Below are positions 1,860 to 46,933 of a stretch of DNA of 64,000 bases, piece after piece. Position 1 is the first letter of the stretch; the number at the start of each line of letters is the position of its first letter. Both the position numbers and the translations under genes were made by a program. The DNA is taken from the NCBI RefSeq assembly GCF_053078305.1, contig NZ_CP166879.1. One strand, written 5' to 3'. Under the pieces are notes generated by a model. It did not search any database and was not told where the DNA came from. It worked only from the letters and a program-made list of their open reading frames with translations.

Positions 1860-1947
1860 GGAAGTGTGGCCGAGCGGTTGAAGGCACCGGTCTTGAAAAC
1901 CGGCGACCCGAAAGGGTTCCAGAGTTCGAATCTCTGCGCTTCCGCCA
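1860..1947 (+). tRNA. serT: tRNA-Ser (anticodon UGA), intact; 3' 60 nt is the attL core
   Basis: GGAAGTGTGGCCGAGCGGTTGAAGG...CGCTTCCGCCA, long variable arm, anticodon loop cTTGAAAa. Confidence 0.9.
1888..1947 (+). repeat. attL core: 60-bp direct repeat, identical to 51881-51940
   Basis: Exact 60-nt match read directly in sequence; mismatch immediately upstream (1887 c vs 51880 t). Confidence 0.85.
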
Positions 1948-3293: not shown

Positions 3294-5012
3294 TTATAAT
3301 GGAAAATACTCAAACCCCGAAGCTCCTGACGACACATACTCACCCACGCTGACTGTACGCCACTGAGAACCATCAAATGTCACCTGAAGCGGCCTGTAAG
3401 AAACCGATATCACACCATCTGCTCCTCTACTTTTCAGACCAGTAATCACAGCTCCTATACTCAGGCTTATTGACAGAAAACCAGAGCTCTCTTCTGCTCT
3501 GTAAGTCTGTTCATTACCCAGCCTGATACCCACAACCCGGCTCTTCCCGTCTGATGCCCCGGGCGGCCCCATCGGCCCGGTTTCTCCACGCTCACCTCTG
3601 GGACCGGGGTCGCCTTTCTCCCCTTTCGGTCCCTGCGCTCCCCGCGGACCAGCGGGGCCTGTTGCTCCCGTTTCACCTTTCGGACCCTGTGCTCCGGGGT
3701 CACCTTTCTCTCCTTTCGGACCGGGAACACCACCTCCTGCTGCAGCCTCTTCTGCCTTTGTTTTCGCTTCATTTGCCACATCCATTGCCGCCTTCACGGC
3801 CTTCGGCGTGGCTGCCTTTGTTTCGTCATTACTGCCAGTATCACTGCTTAACTGCACCACACCTTTCTGCGTCGTGCTGGCATCCCGCTGGCTGACCGTA
3901 TCCGGTTTGTTTTTTGTGCTGTAATCCACCCGCCAGTGGAAATACCGTGTGTCGCCGTAAACCGTACAGGTACAGACCGTGCCATTAATAAACCCCGTTG
4001 CACCGTATTCGCCAATGGTGACCCGGACTATGGCAGCCTCATACGTTCCCATCACCTCAATGACACAGCCACCCAGATTGAGTTTTCCCGGTCCGACATC
4101 CGTGATGACTTTATTCATTGACGCAAGCAGTGATGCCTTCATCATCCAGTAAGGCTGGTCAAATGCCCCTTTTTCTTTCAGCCAGGCAACAAACTCGCGT
4201 GTTTTCCATTCACCGGCCCCCGTATGAATGTCCCGCCCGTATACTCTGGCTGCTCCCACGGTGTTCAGAAACTTCACCTTATCCGGGATATCATCACCGT
4301 TTTTCGCTTTCTCCAGGCATCCGTCCGCTTTGTCCATTGCCGCTTTCACCGCTTTCGGCGTGGCTGCCTTCGTTTCATCATCACTGTCCGTTGCGCTGCT
4401 TAACTGCACAATTCCCTTCTGTGCCGTCGTCGCATCCGGCCCTCCCGGCTCGCCTTTTTCGCCCTTCTCTCCCCGTTCACCTTTCACACCCTGAAGCCCC
4501 TGTGGTCCTGTCTCACCACGCTCACCCTTTGGCCCCCGCTCGCCGGTATCGCCTTTTGGCCCGGGAATACCCTGCGGCCCGGTGTCCCCCTTATCCCCCT
4601 TCGGTCCCCGCGCATTCTCTGCCCGTTTCTTCGCTTCCTCTGCACTCGCCGCTGACGCTTCCGCACGTTTCAGGATTTCCGCTGCCACCGCTTCCAGCTC
4701 TGCAAGGGCTTTCGGGTAATACTGTGCGTCTTCCAGGTCCATCAGAAATTTATTCAGCGTTCCCGGTGCAGAATCCGCCTTCACCAGAATGTCACCCACA
4801 TATGACGGCGCGTACCCTTCCGTGTTCAGCGTCACCCGGTACAACCCCGGCTCAACATCCATACTGTAACTGCCGGTTTCCCCCGGCTGACCATACGCCA
4901 CCGTGGTGACAATCACCATCTCCGTTGTGCGGCGCGCTTTCAGCTCTATCGTGCATCCCGGTACTGGTTTTCCCGTACCATCCTTCAGCACACCCGATAT
5001 TCTGACTGTCAT
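3294..5012 (-). CDS. stf: Side tail fiber protein with collagen-like G-x-x repeats
   Basis: Two blocks of [13 protein letters not shown]... repeats; conserved [10 protein letters not shown] motif twice; follows J. Confidence 0.75.
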
Positions 5013-5154
5013 GGATTTCCCCCATAAAAAAACCGCAGTACCGGTTTCCCGGCCTGCGGTAAAATTTGTGGTTTGTTGGTGTTAAAACGGTGCCATCCGG
5101 CTGACCACCCTCAGCAACCGGTCGGCGGGGGATATTCTCCCCCGCCACGGTTTC

Positions 5155-5295
5155 TTACTGCTTACACTGTAAGAACGCCGCAATCTCCGCGCCCGCTATC
5201 CGGAACCGGAACTCGCACAGTGAACTGTGGGTGATCCAGATAATGAGCACTACCGTGATACAAATCACGGTGGTTTTTAACGGTTTTTGCGACAT
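5155..5295 (-). CDS. hok: Hok/Gef-family type I toxin (46 aa), not in ORF track
   Basis: Own translation: MSQKPLKTTVICITVVLIIWITHSSLCEFRFRIAGAEIAAFLQCKQ; TM helix plus LCE-R-R...AAF signature; AAGGAG RBS 9 nt upstream. Confidence 0.6.
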   Translation of the reverse strand: MSQKPLKTTVICITVVLIIWITHSSLCEFRFRIAGAEIAAFLQCKQ

Positions 5296-5493
5296 AAACG
5301 CTTGCTCCTTTTACGGAGAGGCGCTAACCTTCAATTTGCTGAAGATCGAAAGTCAGGCCTCGGGTTAAACATGAATGTTTGTCCGGGGCCTTCGTCTTTC
5401 CGGCCTTCAGGTGTTCCCTCCGGCCATCAGCCAAAGGCACCCGCGCATACTGTACGGTTTTTGTCTCCTTCCGGCAATCCCGGGGCGCGATGT

Positions 5494-8400
5494 TCAACTG
5501 ATGCCGATCCCCGCCGTGGATTTTTTCATGACCACAACCAGTAAATCACTGATGTATGTTGTCGGCGTCCAGTGGTTCACCCCGTTCGACCACACATTAA
5601 ACGTCAGGGTCACATGACCCCGTCCTGCTGGCATATCAATGACGGACGAAAACACCCGGGTGACATCCGTTGCCGGCTGATGAAAAATTACCCTTCCGTT
5701 CATCTGCACCTGTAACTGACACGTGGAATACCATGTTGAAGTGTGATCTTTGCTGGACTGGTGCTCATGTCTCGCCCCCCGGAACAGCACCGGTGGAATG
5801 ATAATCTGCCGGTCGAAGCCCTGGTCATCGTAAACCGTGACGGTTATCGTGCCACTGGCATAACTGTTATTCCGGGGAAAGGCTTTCCCCACCGTCTTCA
5901 CCAGATCGCCTTCAATCTGGTTCGCAGACAGTTTCCCTCTGATGACACAGTTCTCGTTAATGGTGACATTATTGAGCGTGCCGCTATTCGCTGTGACAGC
6001 TCCACTGATGTCCGCATTGCGGGCCGTCAGCCTGCCCTCCGGCGTCAGGGAGAACGTCGGGGGATTGCCGGACGAGGTGATGCTCACTGCAAACAGTCGC
6101 TTCAGGAACACATCGTTCATGAACAGCTGATTCCCCTGCGCCACAAACAGCGGCGTGGTGTTGCCGTTCTCCGGGTTAATCATCGCGATACGGTCCGCCT
6201 GCAGCAGAATATTGCTCAGGGGCTGGCCATCAGCATCCTCAATCCCCGCACCTATACCGGCAACATACGGAATGCCGTTTTTCGTTTTCTGCACCTTCAG
6301 CATATACAGCGCAGCCAGGTCGTTATTTGTGTCTGTCTGCACCCGCTGTATCTGCTGTATGGTGGCACTCTGGTCTTCCAGGGTTTTACTGACCGTCTGC
6401 GTGATTTCATTGCGGGTTTCGGTGATGGTGGTCTTCATCTCCGCCATCTCATCGTCAAGCTGGCTGTTATCAATCAGCTCCCACATCCCCTGTGCCAGAT
6501 GTGTCTTCCCGATTTCTCCTCTGAAAAAGTCCAGATACCCTTCCGCATCATTGCTCGCCCGGCCACTGGCTTCCACAAACGCAGATTTCCCCACCAGGTT
6601 GACGCTGCGCACATAAAACCAGAAATCCTTCCCCGGCTTGATGTGCGGGCCGGAGACGCTCCACTGGCTGCCTGTCCCCAGATAACGGGCAGAGGTTTCC
6701 ACCTGAGATGTGTCTGCGATTTTTGCCTCCGAGAACCAGAACTCAAACTGTACCGTCGGGTCATACACCGCCAGCACCGGTACTGCTGTTATCTGATAAT
6801 ACCCCGGCGTCAGCTCAATGCTGGCCGGTGCTGCAGGCGCATTAATCCGGAACGCGGTGGTGGCAGGTTCGCCCTGCTGGCCGTAGCTGTTTATCGCCCT
6901 GACCGTCAGGGTGTATTCCCCCAGAGGCAGGCCACTGAAACGGTGCTCCGTGTCGGCAGTGATGGCGGTGGTCACCAGGCGGCTGTTTTCACCGTTTCCG
7001 CTGGTCAGGCGCAGACTGAAGCGCACGCCCTTCACCACCCGCGGCGTGTCCCATTTCGCCAGCGCCAGATACTGGCCGTCTGAGGCACTCACCTCCACCG
7101 TGAGGTGCTGCACTGCCGGCGGGATAACGCTGTTCAGTGAACCGGACAGCGGCTCAAAGCGAGCCCCGTTATCCACAATGGCTTCTTTTTCCGGTACGTG
7201 CTGCACTGCCGTGATGGCAAAAGTGCCGTCCGTGTTTTCCCGGATGGAAACACAGCGGAACAGGCGACGACGCAGTGACGGCAGGGAGAGTCCCCACACA
7301 CCGTATGTCTCCACGCCATCCGGCAGGGCGCTGACCTGTATCCGGTCCGGCGCGGGGTGTGCAGTGATGTCCACGCGCACCGGCTTACCGCTGCCGTTAA
7401 TCAGGTTCACCGTCGATGTCCCTGCTTCCGGCAGTGTCACCTCACGGTCCAGCGTCAGTGTGCGGCTGGCGGCATCAATGGACAGGATGCGTCCGCCGGT
7501 CAGGGTCCCGGCATAGTCGTTATCACAGATTTCAATGATGTCACCGGGCGTATGCCGCAGCCCCTGTGACCCGAGCGTGAAATCCACCGTCTGCGTTTCC
7601 AGCAGTTCGGTCTTTATCACCCACAGTCCGGCACGGTGGGCCTGACCGCGGCTGGTACAGCCAAACGCATCCATCTTCAGCAGGTTGCGTCCGTAGCGCA
7701 GGATGGCGTCCGGGTCTTCCACCAGTTCCGTGGAGGTCTGCCAGCCGTTCTGCGGGTCGGTGTAATTCACCTCCACCGCCGTGTGCCGGTCCTTCAGGGC
7801 ACTGAAGCTGTAGCGGAACCCCACGCCGTTATCATCCACCACCACATCGCTGTTGGTGTACGGCCACACCACATCCGACGGACGGTCCTGAACGAACGTC
7901 AGCGTCTGGCCGTTCCATACCGGCATACAGCGCATCGCCGAGCAGAAATCCCCCAGGACATCCCACACCTTACGCTGCTGTGACAGGTACGCATTGAAAG
8001 TCATCCGCGGCTCTGTTCCCCCGAAACCATCCGGGACCGTCTGGTCGCAGTACTGCCCGATGGCATACAGTGCCCACTTGTCCACATCCGCGGCCCCCAG
8101 GCGTTTTCCCATGCCGTAGCGCGGGTGGGTCAGCATGTCCCACAGGCACCAGGCCGGGTTATTGCTGTATGCCGGTTTCAGACTCCCGTCCCAGATACCG
8201 CTGTAGGTGCGTTTTTCCGGGTCATAGTTTGACGGCACCTGAATGATGCGACCACGGATATGGTAGTTCACCGTCAGCTGCTGGCCACCAAACTGCTCCG
8301 CATCCACCTGCAGCCCCACAATGGCCGTGTTCGGGTAGCACTGTTTCACATCGATGATTTCGGTGTATGACGACCACAGCGTTCTGTTCTGCAGCTGGTC

Positions 8401-17563: not shown

Positions 17564-18592
17564 TTATTTCACCTGTACCACCACAAACTCATCCGGATCC
17601 GGCAGCACCATCAGCGGCGCGGACTGCGTCATGGTGAATTCACGGGCCGGATCGCCCACGGTCATCCAGTGTTTCGGATAACGGGAAGAGGCCACCACAC
17701 CTTCGGACAACGCCTGCGCATCCTGAATGGCACCATAGCAACGGATGCCCTCCGCTGACGTATTTCCCAGGACCAGCGTGCCCTCCGGCAGATAACGTTT
17801 TTCGGTACCGTCCTCTGCCACATAAGACGTTTTCGCCACCACAATGGCCAGATCGCCGTAATACCCCTTGAAGGACACCACTGCGCCCAGATCTTTCACT
17901 GCCGTTTCGAGTTGTGAATTTGAGCCGCGACGGGTATCCAGTTTTTCGCGGAACAGCTTAAAGCCATTCAGCAGACGCCAGACCGTACCGTCCATAATGG
18001 CGATATTCACAAGACCGCTGGCCTGATCGCAGTAGAGGTCAATATCATGCGTCGGATCAAACGTATCACGGTCCTGCTCAGACCATTTTTTACCGTCAGC
18101 CTGCTCAATGTTATTTCCTTCAGAGCGCCCGAAATCCACCTCGACAGTATCAAACTGCTCCCCTTCCATGGTGTATTTGCCATACAGCACGGCATTCACC
18201 GCCTGCATTTCCTCCACCTGGACAATGGCATGCTCTTCCTGTTTGAGGTTATCAGTGATGATACGCAGACGACGGTAGGCCGGGTCGTTCAGTTGCGCCG
18301 GATCTTCACCGGGAAGGCGCTCCACCGCCTGCTGGTAATTAAATTCGTGTTTCGGCTTGACGTAGCCCGGACGCAACACGCGGGTTTCACCACCACGATG
18401 ACGCAGCACTTTTCCTTCAACAACCGGGGAGACATAGGCTGCCACCGGCGTTTTTCCGGTAATTTTGTCCAGCATCACCTCTTCGGTGTGGAAATTCACC
18501 GTACGGCGGAAAAACAGTTCCAGAAACAGCGCACGAAATTTCACTTTTTGTTCGGTATAACCGAGTAACTGGCGGGTCGTAAACAATCCCAT
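17564..18592 (-). CDS. E: Major capsid protein E
   Basis: ...GYVKPKHE...AYRRLRII...KLDTRRGSNS...DPAREFTM... collinear with lambda E. Confidence 0.9.
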   Translation of the reverse strand: MGLFTTRQLLGYTEQKVKFRALFLELFFRRTVNFHTEEVMLDKITGKTPVAAYVSPVVEGKVLRHRGGETRVLRPGYVKPKHEFNYQQAVERLPGEDPAQLNDPAYRRLRIITDNLKQEEHAIVQVEEMQAVNAVLYGKYTMEGEQFDTVEVDFGRSEGNNIEQADGKKWSEQDRDTFDPTHDIDLYCDQASGLVNIAIMDGTVWRLLNGFKLFREKLDTRRGSNSQLETAVKDLGAVVSFKGYYGDLAIVVAKTSYVAEDGTEKRYLPEGTLVLGNTSAEGIRCYGAIQDAQALSEGVVASSRYPKHWMTVGDPAREFTMTQSAPLMVLPDPDEFVVVQVK

Positions 18593-18649
18593 AAATCAGT
18601 TCCTTTCATTCAGAAATCAGTCAGGCCAACGCGGTGGCCTGATAACGTG

Positions 18650-18997
18650 TTACGGCAGCGCCGCGTGACTCAGGGCTGTGCCGACAAAGGCGTTGGCCTT
18701 TTTGTGTTCATCCACACTTTCAGGCCAGCGGATTGCCTCCGTCGCAAAGGTCCCCGACTTGTAATACGTCAGCACCGTCTCTGTGCCTTCAAGCGGCAGT
18801 ACCAGTATGCCAGCCGCACTACCGGCTTTCTGTCCGTCCCAGACCACCAGTTTCCCGCTGGCTTCATCCAGCATCAGGGGCGTCAGTGCCGGTGTTGCCT
18901 GAGAAATCCCGCTGCTGCCTGTGGCGGTATGAGCCGGATCATTACCGGCAAAAATACGTACTTCTGCACGTTGTTCAGTGATGGTTTTCGTTACCAT
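18650..18997 (-). CDS. D: Head decoration protein D
   Basis: ...NDPAHTAT...TPLMLD...YKSGTF... matches lambda D. Confidence 0.85.
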   Translation of the reverse strand: MVTKTITEQRAEVRIFAGNDPAHTATGSSGISQATPALTPLMLDEASGKLVVWDGQKAGSAAGILVLPLEGTETVLTYYKSGTFATEAIRWPESVDEHKKANAFVGTALSHAALP

Positions 18998-19033: not shown

Positions 19034-20539
19034 TCATGGCATGGCCATGAGCATTTTCACGTCCGCATCACCGTCTGCCGACGTCTGTGACACGCCACCC
19101 TGCACGGCTGCCGGTGAATGGTTCGCCATGATGCGTTCAAACATGGCGGTTGTGGATGCAGAAACCGGTTCTGCTTTATCCGGCGATGAGGACAGAATGT
19201 CGCGGGCAGCCTCCACCGTCATTCCGGGAAACGCCGCCAGTTTTTCAGCCTGCGCCTCAGCCCCTTTTGCCTCATCCAGAGCCATAATCTGATCACGGAG
19301 TGAGGGTCCGGCATCCGCCTGCGGTGAAGCCGCCAGGATCGGGCGGGCTTTTTCCACCGTCATATCCGGCATCGCCGCCAGCGTTGCCGCCAGTTGTTCA
19401 CGACCTTTAGCTTCTTCACACGCCATAATGCGATCGGCTTCACTCTGCGCGGATGCCACCGGCTGCTGCGGTGCTGCCGCGGCCAGAATCGCCCGGGCCT
19501 GTTCAACGCTCATGCCCTGTTGTCCTGCCAGCATCGTGGCAAGCTGTTCACGTCCTTTCGCTTCCTGACACGTCAGGATCCCCATCACTCGCTGGTTCTC
19601 CTGCGCGGCGGCTTCCGTTGCAGTTAATTGCGGCATAGTGCCTCCTGTATCATGTGTGTTCAGCGCCGCAGCCATCACGCTGATGGCATCCGACGCATTG
19701 ATTAATTCATCCGCCAGCCCGGCCTCAATACCGGACTGACCTTCAAAAACGGCAGCCTCTGTCCCCGTGACAGCTTCCACAGACAGCCCCGTATACATCG
19801 CCACTTTTTCGGCAAACATCCGGTGCGCCGCATCAATCCGCTGCTGCATGTCCTGGCGAACCTCTGACGGCAACGCTTCAAACTGATTGCCATCCACCTT
19901 ATGCGCCCCGGCATAAATCAGCGTGATATCCACTCCGGCCTGCGCCAGATGACCGGCATAGCTGACATGGCCCATCATCACGCCAATGGAGCCGATACGG
20001 GATGTCTGGGTAACCAGCCGTCGGGAGCAGGCCGACGCCAGCAGCATGGCCGCAGAACAGGCCGTGTCATTACACAGTGCCCAGACCGGCTTCTGCTGCC
20101 GGAGGCGGTAAATCATGTCAGCGCAGTCAAACGCACCGGCGGCCTGCCCGCCCGGACTGTCAATATCCAGCAGTACGCCCCGGACAGAGGTGTCCGCCAT
20201 TGCCTGCTGAAGACAGGCAACAATGCCGTCATAGCCTGTCATTCCGGAAAATGGCCGCATACCACCCAGCCGGTGCACCAGCGTGCCGGTCACCGGCAGT
20301 ACCGCAATACCGTTCACCACCCGGTAAACACGGGCCGGTCGTTTACCTCCGGCCATGTACTCGTCCGTTTCAGCCAGCATCCCGGGAGCATCAAGCTGTA
20401 CCTGCTGTTGTGGTAACGAAAGACTTGCTGCCCCCATCTCGCGCCCCAGCGCGCAAAAGAAAACCCGCGCATAGGCGGGCTCCAGAAGCAGCGGTTCATT
20501 GAATGCTGCGGCAATAATGTGTGAAAGATTACGTCTCAC
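19034..20539 (-). CDS. C: Head maturation protease / scaffold (C, Nu3-like C-terminus) with three tandem ~40-aa repeats
   Basis: 501 aa; position between portal and D; repeated (Q/E)EAKGREQLA...M(S/T)VE(Q/K)AR(A/P)ILAA units. Confidence 0.8.
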   Translation of the reverse strand: MRRNLSHIIAAAFNEPLLLEPAYARVFFCALGREMGAASLSLPQQQVQLDAPGMLAETDEYMAGGKRPARVYRVVNGIAVLPVTGTLVHRLGGMRPFSGMTGYDGIVACLQQAMADTSVRGVLLDIDSPGGQAAGAFDCADMIYRLRQQKPVWALCNDTACSAAMLLASACSRRLVTQTSRIGSIGVMMGHVSYAGHLAQAGVDITLIYAGAHKVDGNQFEALPSEVRQDMQQRIDAAHRMFAEKVAMYTGLSVEAVTGTEAAVFEGQSGIEAGLADELINASDAISVMAAALNTHDTGGTMPQLTATEAAAQENQRVMGILTCQEAKGREQLATMLAGQQGMSVEQARAILAAAAPQQPVASAQSEADRIMACEEAKGREQLAATLAAMPDMTVEKARPILAASPQADAGPSLRDQIMALDEAKGAEAQAEKLAAFPGMTVEAARDILSSSPDKAEPVSASTTAMFERIMANHSPAAVQGGVSQTSADGDADVKMLMAMP

Positions 20540-22121
20540 GTGGTGTTGTCTCCTCTTCCGGCCTGCGGCTCTCCGCTATCTGCTGCTGATACGCCTGCGC
20601 TATCCACACCGGACGTGAGAGTCCGGCTTTTTCCCGCTCTGCGGATTCCCTGACCTGCTGGCGGAAAATGTCCTGATAATCCTCACCCATCAGCGCCAGC
20701 TCTTTCTCATACGTGCTCAGTCCGGAATCAATACGCATCACCGATTCCTGGACCTCCTTGAGCCCGTCAATGGCCATTCTTCCGGCACCAATCCACTCTG
20801 CCCGTGACCAGGCTGATCGCGCCTGATAAAAATCAAAACGTGCCCGTGGCGGACGGATAATCCCCCGAAGAAGTGCCTCTTCCAGCCAGCAGGAAAACAT
20901 CTGCGTGGCCAGCCGGGCCGCAATAAATTTTCGTCGTCCCATAAAATAGCGCCACGACTCATTGGCAGAGGCGCGGGCACTTGAATAACTGACCTTCGAG
21001 TAATCACGGGACAACTGTTCGTAGGAAACGCCAAGACCGGCGGCGATATACCGCAGCAGCGCCTGTTCAAGCGCCGAAAATCCATTGTCTGAATCCTGCG
21101 CGGTCTGCAGTTTCAGATCATCACCGGGGAAAAGGTGCGGAATTTTGACACCACCCAGCGTCACGTGATTCGTGTCATACCAGCTGGAGAACTTCTCCAG
21201 AATATTAATGAGCGGATTATCCTGCTGACCCTGTGGTGCCCCCGCGATATATTCAAAGGCCTTTTCGGTATCAAGTTCACTTTCAATCGTCGCTGCATAC
21301 ATCGCCTTCACTATGGCCGACTGAAGCTGTGTTGCCTGCAGGGAATCGAGCATCTTCAGCCGTTCCATGACGCTGTAAAACTGATTGGCCCCACGGGTCT
21401 GCCCGTCCTCCACCGGCTCGAAAATATGCAGCATGGCCGGACGCCCGGTGGGAAGTTCACGCGGGATCCGTTCCCATCGTCCACTTCCGGAGAACGGAAA
21501 ATCATCCTCACAGATATGGTACGCAACGGCACGGCCATATCGATCGACCTCCACACCGGCACGCAGAAAACGGTTCCCCATACCGTGTCCTGGCGTGTCC
21601 ACCCGTTTCGGACTCACGGCTTTAAAACGCGTGCGGAATAACTGCGTGGTTTCCGTATCCCAGACCGGCTGCACAAAGATTTCGCCGTTAAAGGCATGAA
21701 CGCCCACACCTTCACGGATAAATTCCGTGAACGTGCGTTTCCCTTCCACGTCGATCTCGCCAAACATCCCTTCTGCGTATTCCGACCAGGCCGCCTCCAC
21801 CTCATCGACAAAACTTTTTGCCGCAGTCTCCCGCATCCCCAGCCAGCGCCAGTTCGGACGGTAGCTGATAAGAAACATATGCCCGACAATATGATCCTTA
21901 TGCAGGGCCACCGCATTAGCCGCTATCCCGTTATTGCGTACCAGATCATCTGCACGGGCATTCCCCAGACGCAACGCGGGCAGCAGGGCCGCATCGGCAC
22001 TCTGCGCCGGTGGCAACCACTCCGCCATTTGCCCGCCAAATCCTGCACCGCCCCCGTGGTAGCTGAGACTCTCCCGAAGCGGAACGCCGTTCACATCAAT
22101 CAGGACAGGCGTTCGTTTCAT
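20529..22121 (-). CDS. B: Portal protein B
   Basis: 530 aa, position and conserved blocks as lambda B. Confidence 0.85.
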   Translation of the reverse strand: MKRTPVLIDVNGVPLRESLSYHGGGAGFGGQMAEWLPPAQSADAALLPALRLGNARADDLVRNNGIAANAVALHKDHIVGHMFLISYRPNWRWLGMRETAAKSFVDEVEAAWSEYAEGMFGEIDVEGKRTFTEFIREGVGVHAFNGEIFVQPVWDTETTQLFRTRFKAVSPKRVDTPGHGMGNRFLRAGVEVDRYGRAVAYHICEDDFPFSGSGRWERIPRELPTGRPAMLHIFEPVEDGQTRGANQFYSVMERLKMLDSLQATQLQSAIVKAMYAATIESELDTEKAFEYIAGAPQGQQDNPLINILEKFSSWYDTNHVTLGGVKIPHLFPGDDLKLQTAQDSDNGFSALEQALLRYIAAGLGVSYEQLSRDYSKVSYSSARASANESWRYFMGRRKFIAARLATQMFSCWLEEALLRGIIRPPRARFDFYQARSAWSRAEWIGAGRMAIDGLKEVQESVMRIDSGLSTYEKELALMGEDYQDIFRQQVRESAEREKAGLSRPVWIAQAYQQQIAESRRPEEETTPRET

Positions 22122-31963: not shown

Positions 31964-31993
31964 GCCCGCATCTCACCATGCGGGCTTTTTTTA
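31964..31993 (+). terminator. Rho-independent terminator on + strand
   Basis: cccgcat-ctcacc-atgcggg hairpin followed by cttttttta. Confidence 0.5.
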
Positions 31994-32000
31994 TCCATAA

Positions 32001-32238
32001 GAAAGCCCCTCCGGAGAGGGGCTGGAGTAGCGCTATGTACCGTTCATTACATGATGCCGGGTGCCTCCCGGTGAGTTCAGCCCGGTGCCACCGAACCCGC
32101 GTCATTCTCGCTAACGATCATCAGAGACCATTCCGTACACCAGCCGCCCCTCCGCACAGGGGGATTCATCATGCAGAAATTTTTTAACAAATTCTCAGTC
32201 GGGAAGACAACCTTCAACTGACTGAATTGTGAGCAACA
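32001..32238. repeat. Structured repeat unit 1 (~238 bp), diverged copy of unit at 32489-32723
   Basis: Shared blocks: gcccctccggagaggggc hairpin, gccgggtgcctcccggtgagttcag, cccctccgcacagggggattca-ATG, ttttaacaaa, ctgaattgtgag. Confidence 0.7.
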
Positions 32239-32488
32239 TAGCATTTAACGGGGAACCTGTTTTCTGCAGTAAAAAGGCCCACCGGAGCGGACGGGCCTGG
32301 AAGGATAGCGGTCATGTGATGCCGGTTTCCCGGTAACTCAGCACCGGTATCTGAGTCAACGTTTTCTCTACTGGGTCATTTCCGATACGCCCTGCCTGCT
32401 GACAGGCTTTCATCACATCTGAAAATATAGCACCCTGACTGATACTGTAGTACCCAAGGTTCCAGAAACTGTGATGTATCCGGCACAG

Positions 32489-32723
32489 AAAAGCCCCTCC
32501 GGAGAGGGGCTGACGCTGCGTATCTGTATCATCATGCGCATGGTGCCGGGTGCCTCCCGGTGAGTTCAGTATCAGCACCTGAACCCGCACAGAAAGGATA
32601 AGGGATGTAACCAAACACCTGTCGCTGATATGCCCCTCCGCTCAGGGGGATTCACCATGCCAGTTTCTTTTAACAAACTCCCCGCAAATCAGACAACTGT
32701 CAACCGTCTGAATTGTGAGACAT
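32489..32723. repeat. Structured repeat unit 2 (~235 bp)
   Basis: Same block order as unit 1; hairpins preserved by compensatory changes (ccgcaca vs ccgctca loop). Confidence 0.7.
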
Positions 32724-33810: not shown

Positions 33811-33887
33811 TGGCGCGTTGTACTGGATTCGAACCAGTGACCGATTGCTTAGAAGGCAATTGCTCTGTCCGACTGAGCTAACAACGC
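33811..33887 (-). tRNA. argO: tRNA-Arg (anticodon UCU), argO-like
   Basis: Cloverleaf folded by hand: acceptor GCGTTGT/ACAACGC, anticodon loop CTTCTAA, T-loop GGTTCGAATCC, CCA end. Confidence 0.75.
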
Positions 33888-33900
33888 ATGATGCTGATAA

Positions 33901-33977
33901 TGGACCGCCATCGGGGACTTGAACCCCGCGCAGCCAGCTTCGAAGGCTGGCGCTCTGTCCCGATGAGCTAATGGCGG
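33901..33977 (-). tRNA. argN: tRNA-Arg (anticodon UCG as read), argN-like
   Basis: Acceptor CCGCCAT/ATGGCGG, anticodon loop CTTCGAA, T-arm CGGGGTTCAAGTCCCCG. Confidence 0.65.
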
Positions 33978-33986
33978 TATGTGATA

Positions 33987-34062
33987 TGGTGGCCCTTGCT
34001 GGATTTGAACCAGCGACCTGGCGATTATGAGTCGCTCGCTCTCACCACTGAGCTAAAGGGCC
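33987..34062 (-). tRNA. ileZ: tRNA with CAU anticodon, ileX-like (tRNA-Ile2 via lysidine, or Met)
   Basis: GGCCCTTTAGCTCAGTGGTGAGAGC...CTCATAA...GGTTCAAATCC...CCA; close to E. coli ileX. Confidence 0.75.
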
Positions 34063-38690: not shown

Positions 38691-38846
38691 TTACTTCTCA
38701 GATTCGTAGTCTACGAAGACAGCAACCTCCGTCTGGCCGGTTCGGATTCGTACCTCGCAGAGGTCTTTCCTCGTTACCAGTGCCGTCACAACAACGGTAA
38801 TACAGATGACGATCAGGGCGATTAACATCGCCTTTTGCTGCTTCAT
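38691..38846 (-). CDS. hok: Hok-family type I toxin (51 aa)
   Basis: MKQQKAMLIALIVICITVVVTALVTRKDLCEVRIRTGQTEVAVFVDYESEK; track ORF extends upstream (mok-like reading frame). Confidence 0.8.
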   Translation of the reverse strand: MKQQKAMLIALIVICITVVVTALVTRKDLCEVRIRTGQTEVAVFVDYESEK

Positions 38847-39136
38847 AGCCTGCTTCTCCTTGCCTTTCGGCACGTAAGAGGCTAACCTACGTTTGTGAAG
38901 CATAGATTGGGCCTCAGATTAATGTTAAGCGTCCTGCAAGACGCGTAATGTTAACTGGGGCTTTTCTCTGTCTGCCTTACGGCGGCATGCCCGAGGCAGA
39001 CAGCCTCAAGCACCCGCAGCAATTCTACTTAACTCTTCTTTCCCCGCAAACCGTTTTTATCCCCAGCGGCAAATCGAATACACCACCAGCGCCACCGCCA
39101 TTGCAATACCAACATTTGAGAAGGCCTCAGGCCAGC

Positions 39137-46475: not shown

Positions 46476-46933
46476 AAAGTGAATTTTGTGATGCGGTGAA
46501 TGCGGCTAAGCGCACGCGGAACAGTTAAAACCGTAAAGTGGTCTTTTACGGGGCGTAACGGGCATACTTCTGTATTCCGGCGTTAATTGTTAACTGGTTA
46601 ACGTCACCTGGAGGCACCAGGCACTGCATCGACAAAGTTCACTTCGGTGATGAAAGGTAAGAGAAAATGTTGAATGTAGCTATTGAAAACCAGAACGGGT
46701 GGAATTATAGTGCACCTGCACCTCATAAAGCGGGTGCCGGGATTGCTACCCCGATGTTCATCATGGCGCATAACCGCGCTCAGGCGTTTTTTTTATGCGT
46801 AATGCACAGCCACATTCAGATTATGGTGGGGCGTGCAGGGCAGCCGCAAGGCTGGCCGGGTTCCATGATGACCGGTTGTAGCAACCCTGTGCGTCTCACC
46901 ACCCATGAGATTGCTACCTCCGGTGGTGAGTTA

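What the first reader, a model, noticed from the sequence alone, without database searches (positions are those of the whole stretch)
19034..20539. Head protease/scaffold protein C carries three tandem ~40-aa repeats
The C-terminal scaffold-like portion contains three consecutive units ((Q/E)EAKGREQLA ... M(S/T)VE(Q/K)AR(A/P)ILAA), a repeat expansion not recalled in lambda C/Nu3. It may tune scaffold length or be a hypervariable region.
Basis: seen in the sequence. Interest (0 to 1): 0.25.

Follow-up and report, generated by a model that had tools for sequence, protein, structure and literature searches.

The report
Phage 21-type triplicated scaffold repeats
The three repeats are real but already on record: this prophage gene is the phage 21 version of lambda's head protease/scaffold gene, whose "Tri boxes" are annotated in GenBank, and each repeat is an extra copy of a small helical domain that lambda and most relatives carry only once.

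Summary
Window 19034-20539 (-) encodes a 501-aa S49 prohead protease/scaffold protein, the lambda C homologue. It sits in a lambdoid E. coli prophage between the portal and decoration/capsid genes.

- **Repeats confirmed.** Three tandem units lie at aa 314-358, 367-407 and 414-454 (period 47-50 aa). Alignment scores are 11-17 SD above shuffles.
- **Already annotated.** The gene is 94% identical in DNA to phage 21 gene 5. GenBank M81255 marks the same segments as "Tri1/Tri/Tri3 box, function unknown". They lie inside nested gene 6, the Nu3 homologue, which here starts at M302 (window 19636) behind AGGAGG.
- **Lambda has one unit.** So do 52 of 53 full-length representatives among 623 hits to a unit profile. 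No Pfam or NCBIfam model covers the unit.
- **Structure.** AlphaFold models each unit as a confident three-helix module joined by flexible linkers.
- **Old triplication.** Units share 55-69% DNA identity, and U1 is orthologous across lineages.
- **Copy number varies modestly.** The three-unit form dominates: 18/18 phage records and about 85% of E. coli copies. Alleles with 2, about 2.5 and 4 units also exist. The sequenced deletions join at 8-nt microhomologies, and the length variation centres on unit 2.

The function, a multivalent scaffold contact module, is inferred, not shown. Low novelty.

The parts
19034..20539 (-). Gene for the 501-aa prohead protease/scaffold protein (phage 21 gene 5 / lambda C homologue). 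GTG start; overlaps the end of the portal gene by 11 nt.
   Evidence: ORF list. Pfam Peptidase_S49 E=3e-35. 94.2% nt identity over 1506/1506 nt to phage 21 gene 5. Annotated 'S49 family peptidase' in E. coli GE3 at 99.7% identity.
19661..20104 (-). S49 (SppA-like) serine peptidase domain, aa 146-293. TIGR00706 extends the match to aa 78-290.
   Evidence: Pfam PF01343; NCBIfam TIGR00706; PDB SppA 3rst/4kwb E~1e-16.
19641..19646 (-). Shine-Dalgarno AGGAGG, 4 nt upstream of the internal in-frame ATG of the nested scaffold gene.
   Evidence: Sequence read. The equivalent RBS is annotated in M81255 and OL657228. An SD plus Met at the same place is conserved in two divergent three-unit loci.
19034..19636 (-). 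Nested in-frame scaffold gene (phage 21 gene 6 / Nu3 analogue). It encodes 200 aa starting at M302: a 12-aa leader, three units and a 47-aa tail.
   Evidence: Maps exactly onto annotated gene 6 of phage 21. Expression was not tested here.
19466..19600 (-). Unit 1 (Tri1 box), aa 314-358.
   Evidence: Unit HMM 76.7 bits. pLDDT 92-96 three-helix module. Orthologous to U1 of other three-unit lineages at 70-82% identity.
19319..19441 (-). Unit 2 (Tri box), aa 367-407. This is the unit that is truncated or deleted in variant alleles.
   Evidence: Unit HMM 84.5 bits. Gap fraction 0.48 across 112 related protein clusters. Deletion junctions at 8-nt microhomologies.
19178..19300 (-). Unit 3 (Tri3 box), aa 414-454. 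It has Ala where 94% of units have the Arg of EAKGRE.
   Evidence: Unit HMM 80.4 bits; consensus table; never deleted in relatives.
19037..19177 (-). C-terminal tail, aa 455-501. It has one low-confidence helix (TTAMFERIMANH), an acidic stretch and the hydrophobic end KMLMAMP.
   Evidence: AF2 pLDDT 46-70. Weak L.A.M....P conservation in the family alignment. No similarity to the units.
20529..22121 (-). Portal gene (lambda B homologue), immediately upstream; context only.
17564..18997 (-). Head decoration gene (18650-18997) and major capsid gene (17564-18592), immediately downstream; context only. These proteins build the shell that the scaffold helps assemble.

Best explanation
This is the phage 21-type allele of the lambda-family head gene pair C/Nu3, in a lambdoid E. 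coli prophage.

**Architecture**
- The full-length product is an S49 serine protease followed by a scaffold part.
- An internal SD+ATG at M302 gives a nested 200-aa scaffold protein (gp6). It consists almost entirely of the three units plus a 47-aa tail.
- Each unit is an extra copy of a roughly 40-aa domain with the consensus RxRI(L/M)x(C/L)xEAKGREx(L/Q)AxxLAxxPGM(T/S)V(E/D)xA(K/R)xILAAAP.
- Lambda and most S49 protease/scaffold proteins of lambda-type head modules carry this domain once, about 50 aa from the C-terminus.
- AlphaFold models each unit as a self-contained three-helix module. The units are joined by short Pro/Ala/Gln/Ser linkers, like beads on a string.

**Evolution**
- The triplication is old and is maintained at the protein level.
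- Occasional slippage or recombination between 8-nt microhomologies inside the repeats gives in-frame alleles with 2, about 2.5 or 4 units. These changes centre on unit 2.

**Function (inferred, not shown)**
- The unit is the contact module by which scaffold and protease join the assembling procapsid. The most likely partner is the E-type major capsid protein; the portal is possible.
- On this view the phage 21 lineage uses a trivalent, largely folded scaffold. Lambda uses one module on a long disordered spacer of similar total length.
For: **Shown**
- S49 domain.
- Lambda-type gene order: terminase, W, portal, C, D, E.
- 94% nt identity and identical length to phage 21 gene 5. Nested gene 6 and Tri1/Tri/Tri3 boxes are annotated at the same positions.
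- AGGAGG+ATG at M302.
- Repeat significance.
- Lambda has one unit.
- The unit profile hits 623 representative proteins. In 52 of 53 full-length ones the unit is single, a median of 52 aa from the C-terminus.
- Distant single-unit relatives sit in the same GpA/gpW/Phage_portal_2/S49/HDPD/Phage_cap_E module.
- Near-invariant positions over 172 unit instances: I, E, A, G, R, A, L, A, A, L, P.
- AF2 pLDDT exceeds 90 for each unit, linkers are 73-77, and pTM is 0.41.
- Identical residues between units often use different codons.
- U1 is orthologous across four three-unit lineages.
- Variant junctions lie at CGTGAACA, CACCGCAG and CTGGCGGC.
- Abundance data.

**Supporting the inferred role**
- Lambda Nu3 is reported to interact with E, C, B and itself (PMC3224144).
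- The unit is by far the most conserved part of the scaffold region.
Against: - No experiment or structure assigns a partner to the unit. The function in the GenBank record is 'unknown'.
- The abundant 482-aa allele lacks helices 2-3 of U2, and rare alleles lack U2 altogether. So three intact units are not strictly required, at least for persistence as a prophage.
- U3 of this allele lacks the near-invariant Arg.
- The hydrophobic C-terminal tail, rather than the unit, could be the capsid-binding element.
- Lambda Nu3 has been described as intrinsically disordered (title of Medina et al. 2011, seen in the reference list). That fits only if the unit is a small folded island.
- Expression of gp6 from M302 rests on annotation and on SD conservation, not on data obtained here.
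Confidence: 0.8

Rival explanations
1. The units are self-association or portal-binding modules. They would drive scaffold-scaffold, scaffold-protease or scaffold-portal contacts. The C-terminal tail would be what binds the capsid protein.
For: - Nu3-Nu3, C-Nu3 and Nu3-B interactions are reported for lambda (PMC3224144).
- The tail ends in a conserved hydrophobic motif (LLNTPV, MLMAMP, RILAFVP) in many family members. This resembles C-terminal targeting peptides.
- The unit always co-occurs with a Phage_portal_2 portal.
Against: - The tail is much less conserved than the unit.
- AF2 folds each unit on its own with high confidence, rather than as an obligate coiled coil.
- The unit co-occurs equally with the E-type capsid protein, so context does not discriminate.
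Confidence: 0.3
2. The two extra units are mainly a structured spacer. They replace lambda's long disordered linker so that the scaffold keeps its length, with no additional binding role.
For: - gp6 is 200 aa and Nu3 is 201 aa, despite different start sites and architectures.
- The protease-to-first-unit linker is 19 aa here and 62 aa in lambda.
- U2 is truncated or deleted in common alleles.
Against: - All three units keep the conserved surface-charged EAKG(R)E loop and the A(K/R)xxL helix across lineages that differ by about 50%. A mere spacer would not need this.
- U1 and U3 are never lost.
Confidence: 0.2
3. The 'Tri boxes' act at the nucleic-acid level, as repeated DNA or RNA sites, rather than as protein repeats.
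For: GenBank annotates them as DNA repeat_region features. Pattern matches to CII sites were annotated nearby in OL657228.
Against: - Units share only 55-69% nt identity, and the longest shared strings are 6-11 nt.
- Only 35-57% of identical residues use the same codon.
- TRF finds no DNA repeat.
- Conservation across 623 diverse proteins is in the amino-acid sequence.
Confidence: 0.02
4. The similarity is a compositional artefact of an Ala/Glu/Gln-rich low-complexity tail.
For: The region is Ala-rich. BLASTP self-comparison reported only the trivial diagonal.
Against: Composition-preserving shuffles never approach the observed scores (z = 11-17). The same position-specific motif recurs in hundreds of proteins.
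Confidence: 0.01

Closest known systems
Phage 21 genes 5 and 6 with Tri1/Tri/Tri3 boxes (GenBank M81255.1, OL657228.1; UniProt VG05_BPP21)
   Same: - Same gene, same length (501 aa, with a nested 200-aa product) and 94% nt identity.
- Same position between the portal and shp/major capsid genes.
- Same internal RBS and ATG.
- Same three repeat segments.
   Different: - About 6% nucleotide divergence.
- The second half of U3 and the following linker is a different allele: AAFPGMTVEAARDILSSSPD here, AACPGMTVESARAVLAAGSG in phage 21.
Bacteriophage lambda C protease / Nu3 scaffold (nested genes)
   Same: - S49 protease with a C-terminal scaffold part and an in-frame nested scaffold gene of about 200 aa.
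- Same head-operon position.
- The same conserved unit followed by a tail of about 40-50 aa.
   Different: - Lambda has one unit, not three.
- Nu3 starts inside the protease domain (M239). It carries a roughly 100-aa Ser/Thr/Ala/Asp-rich spacer before the unit.
- gp6 starts 12 aa before U1.
- About 54% aa identity over the protease part.
P22-type scaffolding protein C-terminal helix-turn-helix coat-binding domain
   Same: Functional analogy only. It is a small helical, charged module near the C-terminus of a scaffold. It tethers the scaffold to the capsid protein N-arm (role as summarised in PMC11922011).
   Different: - No sequence similarity.
- The unit here is modelled as a three-helix module.
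- P22's module is single, not tandem.
Tandem three-helix-bundle binding modules of bacterial surface proteins (staphylococcal protein A domains, GA module, BibA, Embp/Ebh)

Membership tests
Lambda-family prohead protease/scaffold (C/Nu3; phage 21 gp5/gp6) | S49 (SppA-like) serine peptidase domain in the N-terminal two thirds | tested here: met
   PF01343 E=3.1e-35, aa 146-293; TIGR00706 E=5e-32; PDB SppA 1.7e-16.
Lambda-family prohead protease/scaffold (C/Nu3; phage 21 gp5/gp6) | Position in a lambda-type head operon between the portal and the decoration/major capsid genes | tested here: met
   Order on the minus strand is terminase, W, portal, this gene, D/SHP homologue, E homologue. The same order is annotated in E. 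coli GE3 and phage 21.
Lambda-family prohead protease/scaffold (C/Nu3; phage 21 gp5/gp6) | In-frame nested scaffold gene with its own ribosome-binding site | tested here: met
   AGGAGG-N4-ATG at M302, colinear with annotated gene 6 of phage 21. This is sequence-level evidence only.
Lambda-family prohead protease/scaffold (C/Nu3; phage 21 gp5/gp6) | Actual translation of the nested product, and proteolytic removal of the scaffold during maturation | not testable with these tools
   Requires protein gels or mass spectrometry of proheads.
Lambda-family prohead protease/scaffold (C/Nu3; phage 21 gp5/gp6) | Conserved C-terminal unit (..EAKGRE..LA..PGMTVE.A(K/R).ILAAAP) followed by a short tail | tested here: met
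   Three copies here and one in lambda. Family-wide consensus.
Phage 21 'Tri box' triplication | Three tandem copies at the positions annotated in M81255 (gene offsets 971-1074, 1111-1221, 1252-1365) | tested here: met
   The annotated boxes map to aa 324-358, 371-407 and 418-455 of a colinear 1506-nt alignment without indels.
P22-type scaffold helix-turn-helix coat-binding domain | Sequence or structural similarity to the solved coat-binding domain | tested here: not met
P22-type scaffold helix-turn-helix coat-binding domain | Binds the capsid protein N-arm | not testable with these tools
   Needs binding assays, cryo-EM, or multimer modelling with coordinates or PAE.

The most novel reading that the evidence does not exclude
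The Tri unit may be the hitherto undefined capsid-binding domain of lambda-type scaffolds. It is a three-helix module present in over 600 protein families with no Pfam or NCBIfam model. On this reading the phage 21 lineage uses a trivalent scaffold. The natural 2-, about 2.5-, 3- and 4-unit alleles would then form a ready-made valency series. That series could test how scaffold valency or length controls T=7 procapsid assembly fidelity.
Probability: 0.3. Interest if true: 0.4.

Novelty: already known. Interest (0 to 1): 0.15.

Why it matters
It matters little as a discovery. The triplication has been on record in the phage 21 head-operon GenBank entry, and this allele is present in roughly a third of complete E. 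coli genomes.

The modest added value is descriptive:
- The repeat unit is a widely conserved, uncurated domain of lambda-type scaffold/protease proteins.
- It is predicted to be an autonomous three-helix module.
- The phage 21 lineage carries it in triplicate, with natural copy-number alleles.

If the unit proves to be the capsid-binding element, these alleles would be useful material for studying how scaffold valency governs capsid assembly.

Tried and rejected
- **Tandem Repeats Finder** on the DNA found no relevant repeat. The units are too diverged at the nucleotide level.
- **BLASTP self-comparison** gave only the trivial diagonal. I replaced it with Smith-Waterman scores and shuffles.
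- **Pfam and NCBIfam** have no model for the unit.
- **PDB sequence search** hit only SppA proteases.
- **Foldseek against PDB and BFVD** with the whole gp6 model gave nothing significant. The only weak hits were to the C-termini of other phage S49 peptidases.
- **A junction-spanning query** to count the 482-aa allele in E. coli genomes was uninformative. The tool joins the two flanks across the 57-nt insert. I replaced it with a query for the deleted 57 nt itself.
- **Literature.** Medina et al. 2011 on gpNu3 is not held. Searches for the phage 21 head-gene paper, or for any structural mapping of Nu3, found nothing relevant.
- **Capsid-linker-scaffold chimera (considered, not run).** An AlphaFold model could test docking, but the tool returns neither coordinates nor PAE, so contacts could not be read.
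- **Rejected readings:** a DNA-level function of the Tri boxes, and a compositional artefact.

Full report
**1. Observation**

The finding's coordinates are an ORF on the minus strand, 19034-20539, with a GTG start and 501 aa. Its C-terminal third contains three consecutive related segments:
- U1, aa 314-358
- U2, aa 367-407
- U3, aa 414-454

In window coordinates these are 19466-19600, 19319-19441 and 19178-19300.

Smith-Waterman scores between the segments were 107 (U1/U2), 109 (U2/U3) and 72 (U1/U3). Shuffle means were 23-26 with SD 4-5. That gives z = 11-17, and none of 1000 composition-preserving shuffles reached the observed values. The last 39 residues show no similarity to the units.

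The repeat is a protein-level feature:
- Tandem Repeats Finder saw nothing relevant in the DNA.
- The unit cores share only 55-69% nucleotide identity.
- Only 35-57% of residues identical between units use the same codon.
- The longest shared nucleotide strings are 6-11 nt.

The period is 47-50 aa and the conserved core is about 40 aa.

**2. What the gene is**

The N-terminal two thirds is an S49 (SppA-like) peptidase:
- Pfam PF01343, E = 3e-35
- TIGR00706
- PDB SppA chains at about 1e-16

On the same strand the gene is preceded by terminase, a W homologue and the portal gene. It is followed by the decoration and major capsid genes. In E. coli GE3 the gene is 99.7% identical, and the annotated region there is a complete lambdoid prophage head and tail module. 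This is the lambda C/Nu3 position.

A megablast against phage genomes gave a gap-free 1506/1506-nt alignment at 94.2% identity to phage 21. The 1990s GenBank record M81255 annotates the following:
- gene 5 (501 aa)
- a nested in-frame gene 6 with its own ribosome-binding site

The newer phage 21 record calls the two products 'capsid protease/scaffolding protein' and 'scaffolding protein'. From memory, not from a tool, the record belongs to Smith and Feiss, Gene 126:1-7 (1993). I could not retrieve that paper.

In the window the internal start is M302 (ATG at 19636), preceded by AGGAGG four bases upstream. The nested scaffold is 200 aa: a 12-aa leader, three units and a 47-aa tail.

**3. Comparison with lambda and the wider family**

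Lambda C (439 aa) has a single unit at aa 357-400. Lambda Nu3 (201 aa) starts at M239, inside the protease domain. It reaches the unit only after a roughly 100-aa Ser/Thr/Ala/Asp-rich stretch. So the two scaffolds have almost the same length (201 and 200 aa) but different make-up.

A profile of the four units was searched against 1.84 billion representative proteins. It found 623 proteins at E <= 1e-3. Among the best 150:
- 140 have one unit.
- Of the 53 that look full-length (>= 380 aa), 52 have one unit.
- That unit sits a median of 52 aa from the C-terminus.

Three distant single-unit members were looked up on their contigs. On the two contigs long enough to show neighbouring genes, they sit in the same lambda-type module: GpA terminase, gpW, Phage_portal_2, S49, HDPD decoration and Phage_cap_E capsid. 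The third contig was too short.

The consensus over 172 unit instances is RxRI(L/M)x(C/L)xEAKGREx(L/Q)AxxLAxxPGM(T/S)V(E/D)xA(K/R)xILAAAP. Eleven positions are conserved at 93% or more. No Pfam or NCBIfam model covers the unit. Only PHROG families labelled scaffolding or capsid assembly protein do.

Three-unit proteins exist in at least three further lineages at 48-62% identity. Two of these were located in lambda-type head operons. In those lineages U1 is more similar to U1 (70-82%) than to its own paralogues (45-64%). An SD plus Met just before U1 is also conserved. The triplication is therefore old and has been maintained.

**4. Structure**

AlphaFold2 was run on gp6 with a 60-sequence alignment and gave mean pLDDT 81.
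- Each unit is a helix, short turn-helix, helix, helix module with block pLDDT 91-96.
- Linkers score 73-77.
- There is a weaker helix in the tail (residues 161-172).
- The last 25 residues or so are disordered.
- pTM is 0.41, meaning the relative placement of units is undetermined. This is a beads-on-a-string model.

Fold searches added little:
- Foldseek against the PDB found nothing.
- Foldseek against viral models gave only weak hits to the C-termini of other phage S49 peptidases.

**5. Copy-number variation**

Among proteins at least about 80% identical, I found these alleles:

| Allele length | Units | How it differs from the 501-aa form |
|---|---|---|
| 451 aa | 2 | U1/U2 hybrid |
| 452 aa | 2 | U2 deleted |
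| 472 and 482 aa | about 2.5 | half of U2 deleted |
| 501 aa | 3 | reference form |
| 551 aa | 4 | 150-nt duplication |
| 657 aa | 6 | larger duplication, seen in one genome |

- **Where the changes fall.** In an alignment of 112 such proteins the indels are concentrated in aa 359-407, and U3 and the tail are never affected. The 50 inserted columns come from the two 551-aa alleles.
- **How the deletions arise.** DNA alignment shows the deletions join at 8-nt microhomologies created by the repeat itself: CGTGAACA, CACCGCAG and CTGGCGGC. The 551-aa duplication carries an N at its junction in the only assembly I read, so it needs confirmation.
- **How common each allele is.**
  - All 18 phage records containing the whole gene align without net indels of unit size, so they have three units.
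  - In 5,426 complete E. coli genomes the gene matches at about 3,250 places in 2,031 genomes.
  - The 57 nt missing from the 482-aa allele are present at 2,751 places.
  - The exact window protein is on 332 contigs. The exact phage 21 gp5 and the exact 482-aa allele are each on at least 1,000. The 451-, 452-, 551- and 657-aa alleles are each on only 1-2.
  - The 452-aa allele I examined lies in a defective O157:H7 prophage whose capsid gene is truncated.

So variation exists and is mechanistically explained. But the three-unit form is the standard state, and the region is not hypervariable in the usual sense. Substitution diversity is 0.03, against 0.005-0.025 in the protease.

**6. How it most likely works**

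Shown:
- The gene is the phage 21-type protease/scaffold pair.
- The units are three paralogous copies of the one strongly conserved domain of lambda-type scaffolds.
- They are selected as protein.
- They are predicted to fold independently.

Inferred:
- The protease (gp5) and scaffold (gp6) share this C-terminal part, and both must enter the procapsid.
- The unit is far better conserved than the tail or the spacer.
- It is therefore most likely the module that contacts the assembling shell, meaning the E-type capsid protein or possibly the portal.
- Lambda Nu3 is reported to interact with E, C, B and itself (PMC3224144). No mapping to the unit exists in the literature I could search.
- Three modules on flexible linkers would give a multivalent, largely folded scaffold. 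Lambda instead has one module on a long disordered spacer of similar overall length.

Rivals:
- The unit mediates self-association or portal binding, while the hydrophobic C-terminal end binds capsid.
- The two extra units are merely a structured spacer.

The tolerated loss of U2 in common alleles, and the missing Arg in U3 of this allele, argue that not all three sites are equally needed. A DNA-level role and a compositional artefact are excluded.

**7. Novelty and verdict**

The repeat is real, but it is the known 'Tri box' triplication of phage 21 gene 6. It is present in about a third of complete E. coli genomes, so it rates as already known and of low interest.

The small additions from this work are:
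- the family-wide definition of the unit as an uncurated three-helix domain
- the age of the triplication
- the catalogue and mechanism of copy-number alleles

The function of the unit remains experimentally undefined.

Noticed in passing
window 33811-34062 (-): A cluster of three prophage-borne tRNA genes: Met-type CAT anticodon (annotated tRNA-Ile in the GE3 prophage, so probably a lysidine Ile tRNA), Arg-TCG and Arg-TCT. This is typical of Stx-like and lambdoid late regions.
   Followed up: no
window 31993-32203 and 32483-32689 (-): Two tandem full-length copies of the sRNA family STnc100 (164 and 135 bits) downstream of the tRNA cluster.
   Followed up: no
window 38841-39015 (-) and 5284-5442 (-): Two sok antitoxin RNA matches (hok/sok type I toxin-antitoxin loci) inside the prophage. 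One is near the early region and one near the tail-fibre end. hokD and a Hok/Gef gene are annotated at the equivalent places in GE3.
   Followed up: no
window 46718-46906 (+): Adjacent isrK and C4 antisense RNA matches (58 and 78 bits). This is the P1/P7-type antisense immunity element found in some lambdoid prophages.
   Followed up: no
window 1860-1947 (+): A tRNA-Ser (TGA) gene near the tail-fibre end of the prophage. It may mark the attachment site, and it differs from the potB/pepT-adjacent location of the near-identical prophage in strain GE3.
   Followed up: no
L015 (E. coli O157:H7 CP038421.1) 4801-5789: The prophage carrying the two-unit 452-aa allele is defective. Its major capsid gene is cut to 88 aa and runs straight into tail tube genes.
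   Followed up: partly
proteins P0085 (721 aa), P0087 (577 aa) and P0128: ORFs in other E. coli assemblies where the protease/scaffold reading frame continues, just after unit 3, into tail-fibre-like sequence (Gly/His-rich repeats or a C-terminal fibre domain). These imply large head-to-tail deletions or misassemblies.
   Followed up: no
protein P0121 (270 aa): A three-unit scaffold preceded by about 60 aa resembling the N-terminus of a DNA methyltransferase (DPPY motif). It is a chimeric ORF or a gene-calling artefact of unknown origin.
   Followed up: no
proteins P0188, P0206 and P0234 (distant single-unit relatives): The spacer between the protease and the unit is a long poly-acidic run, for example repeated EDEDDAESN. 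The spacer is therefore highly variable in length and composition across the family, while the unit is constant.
   Followed up: no
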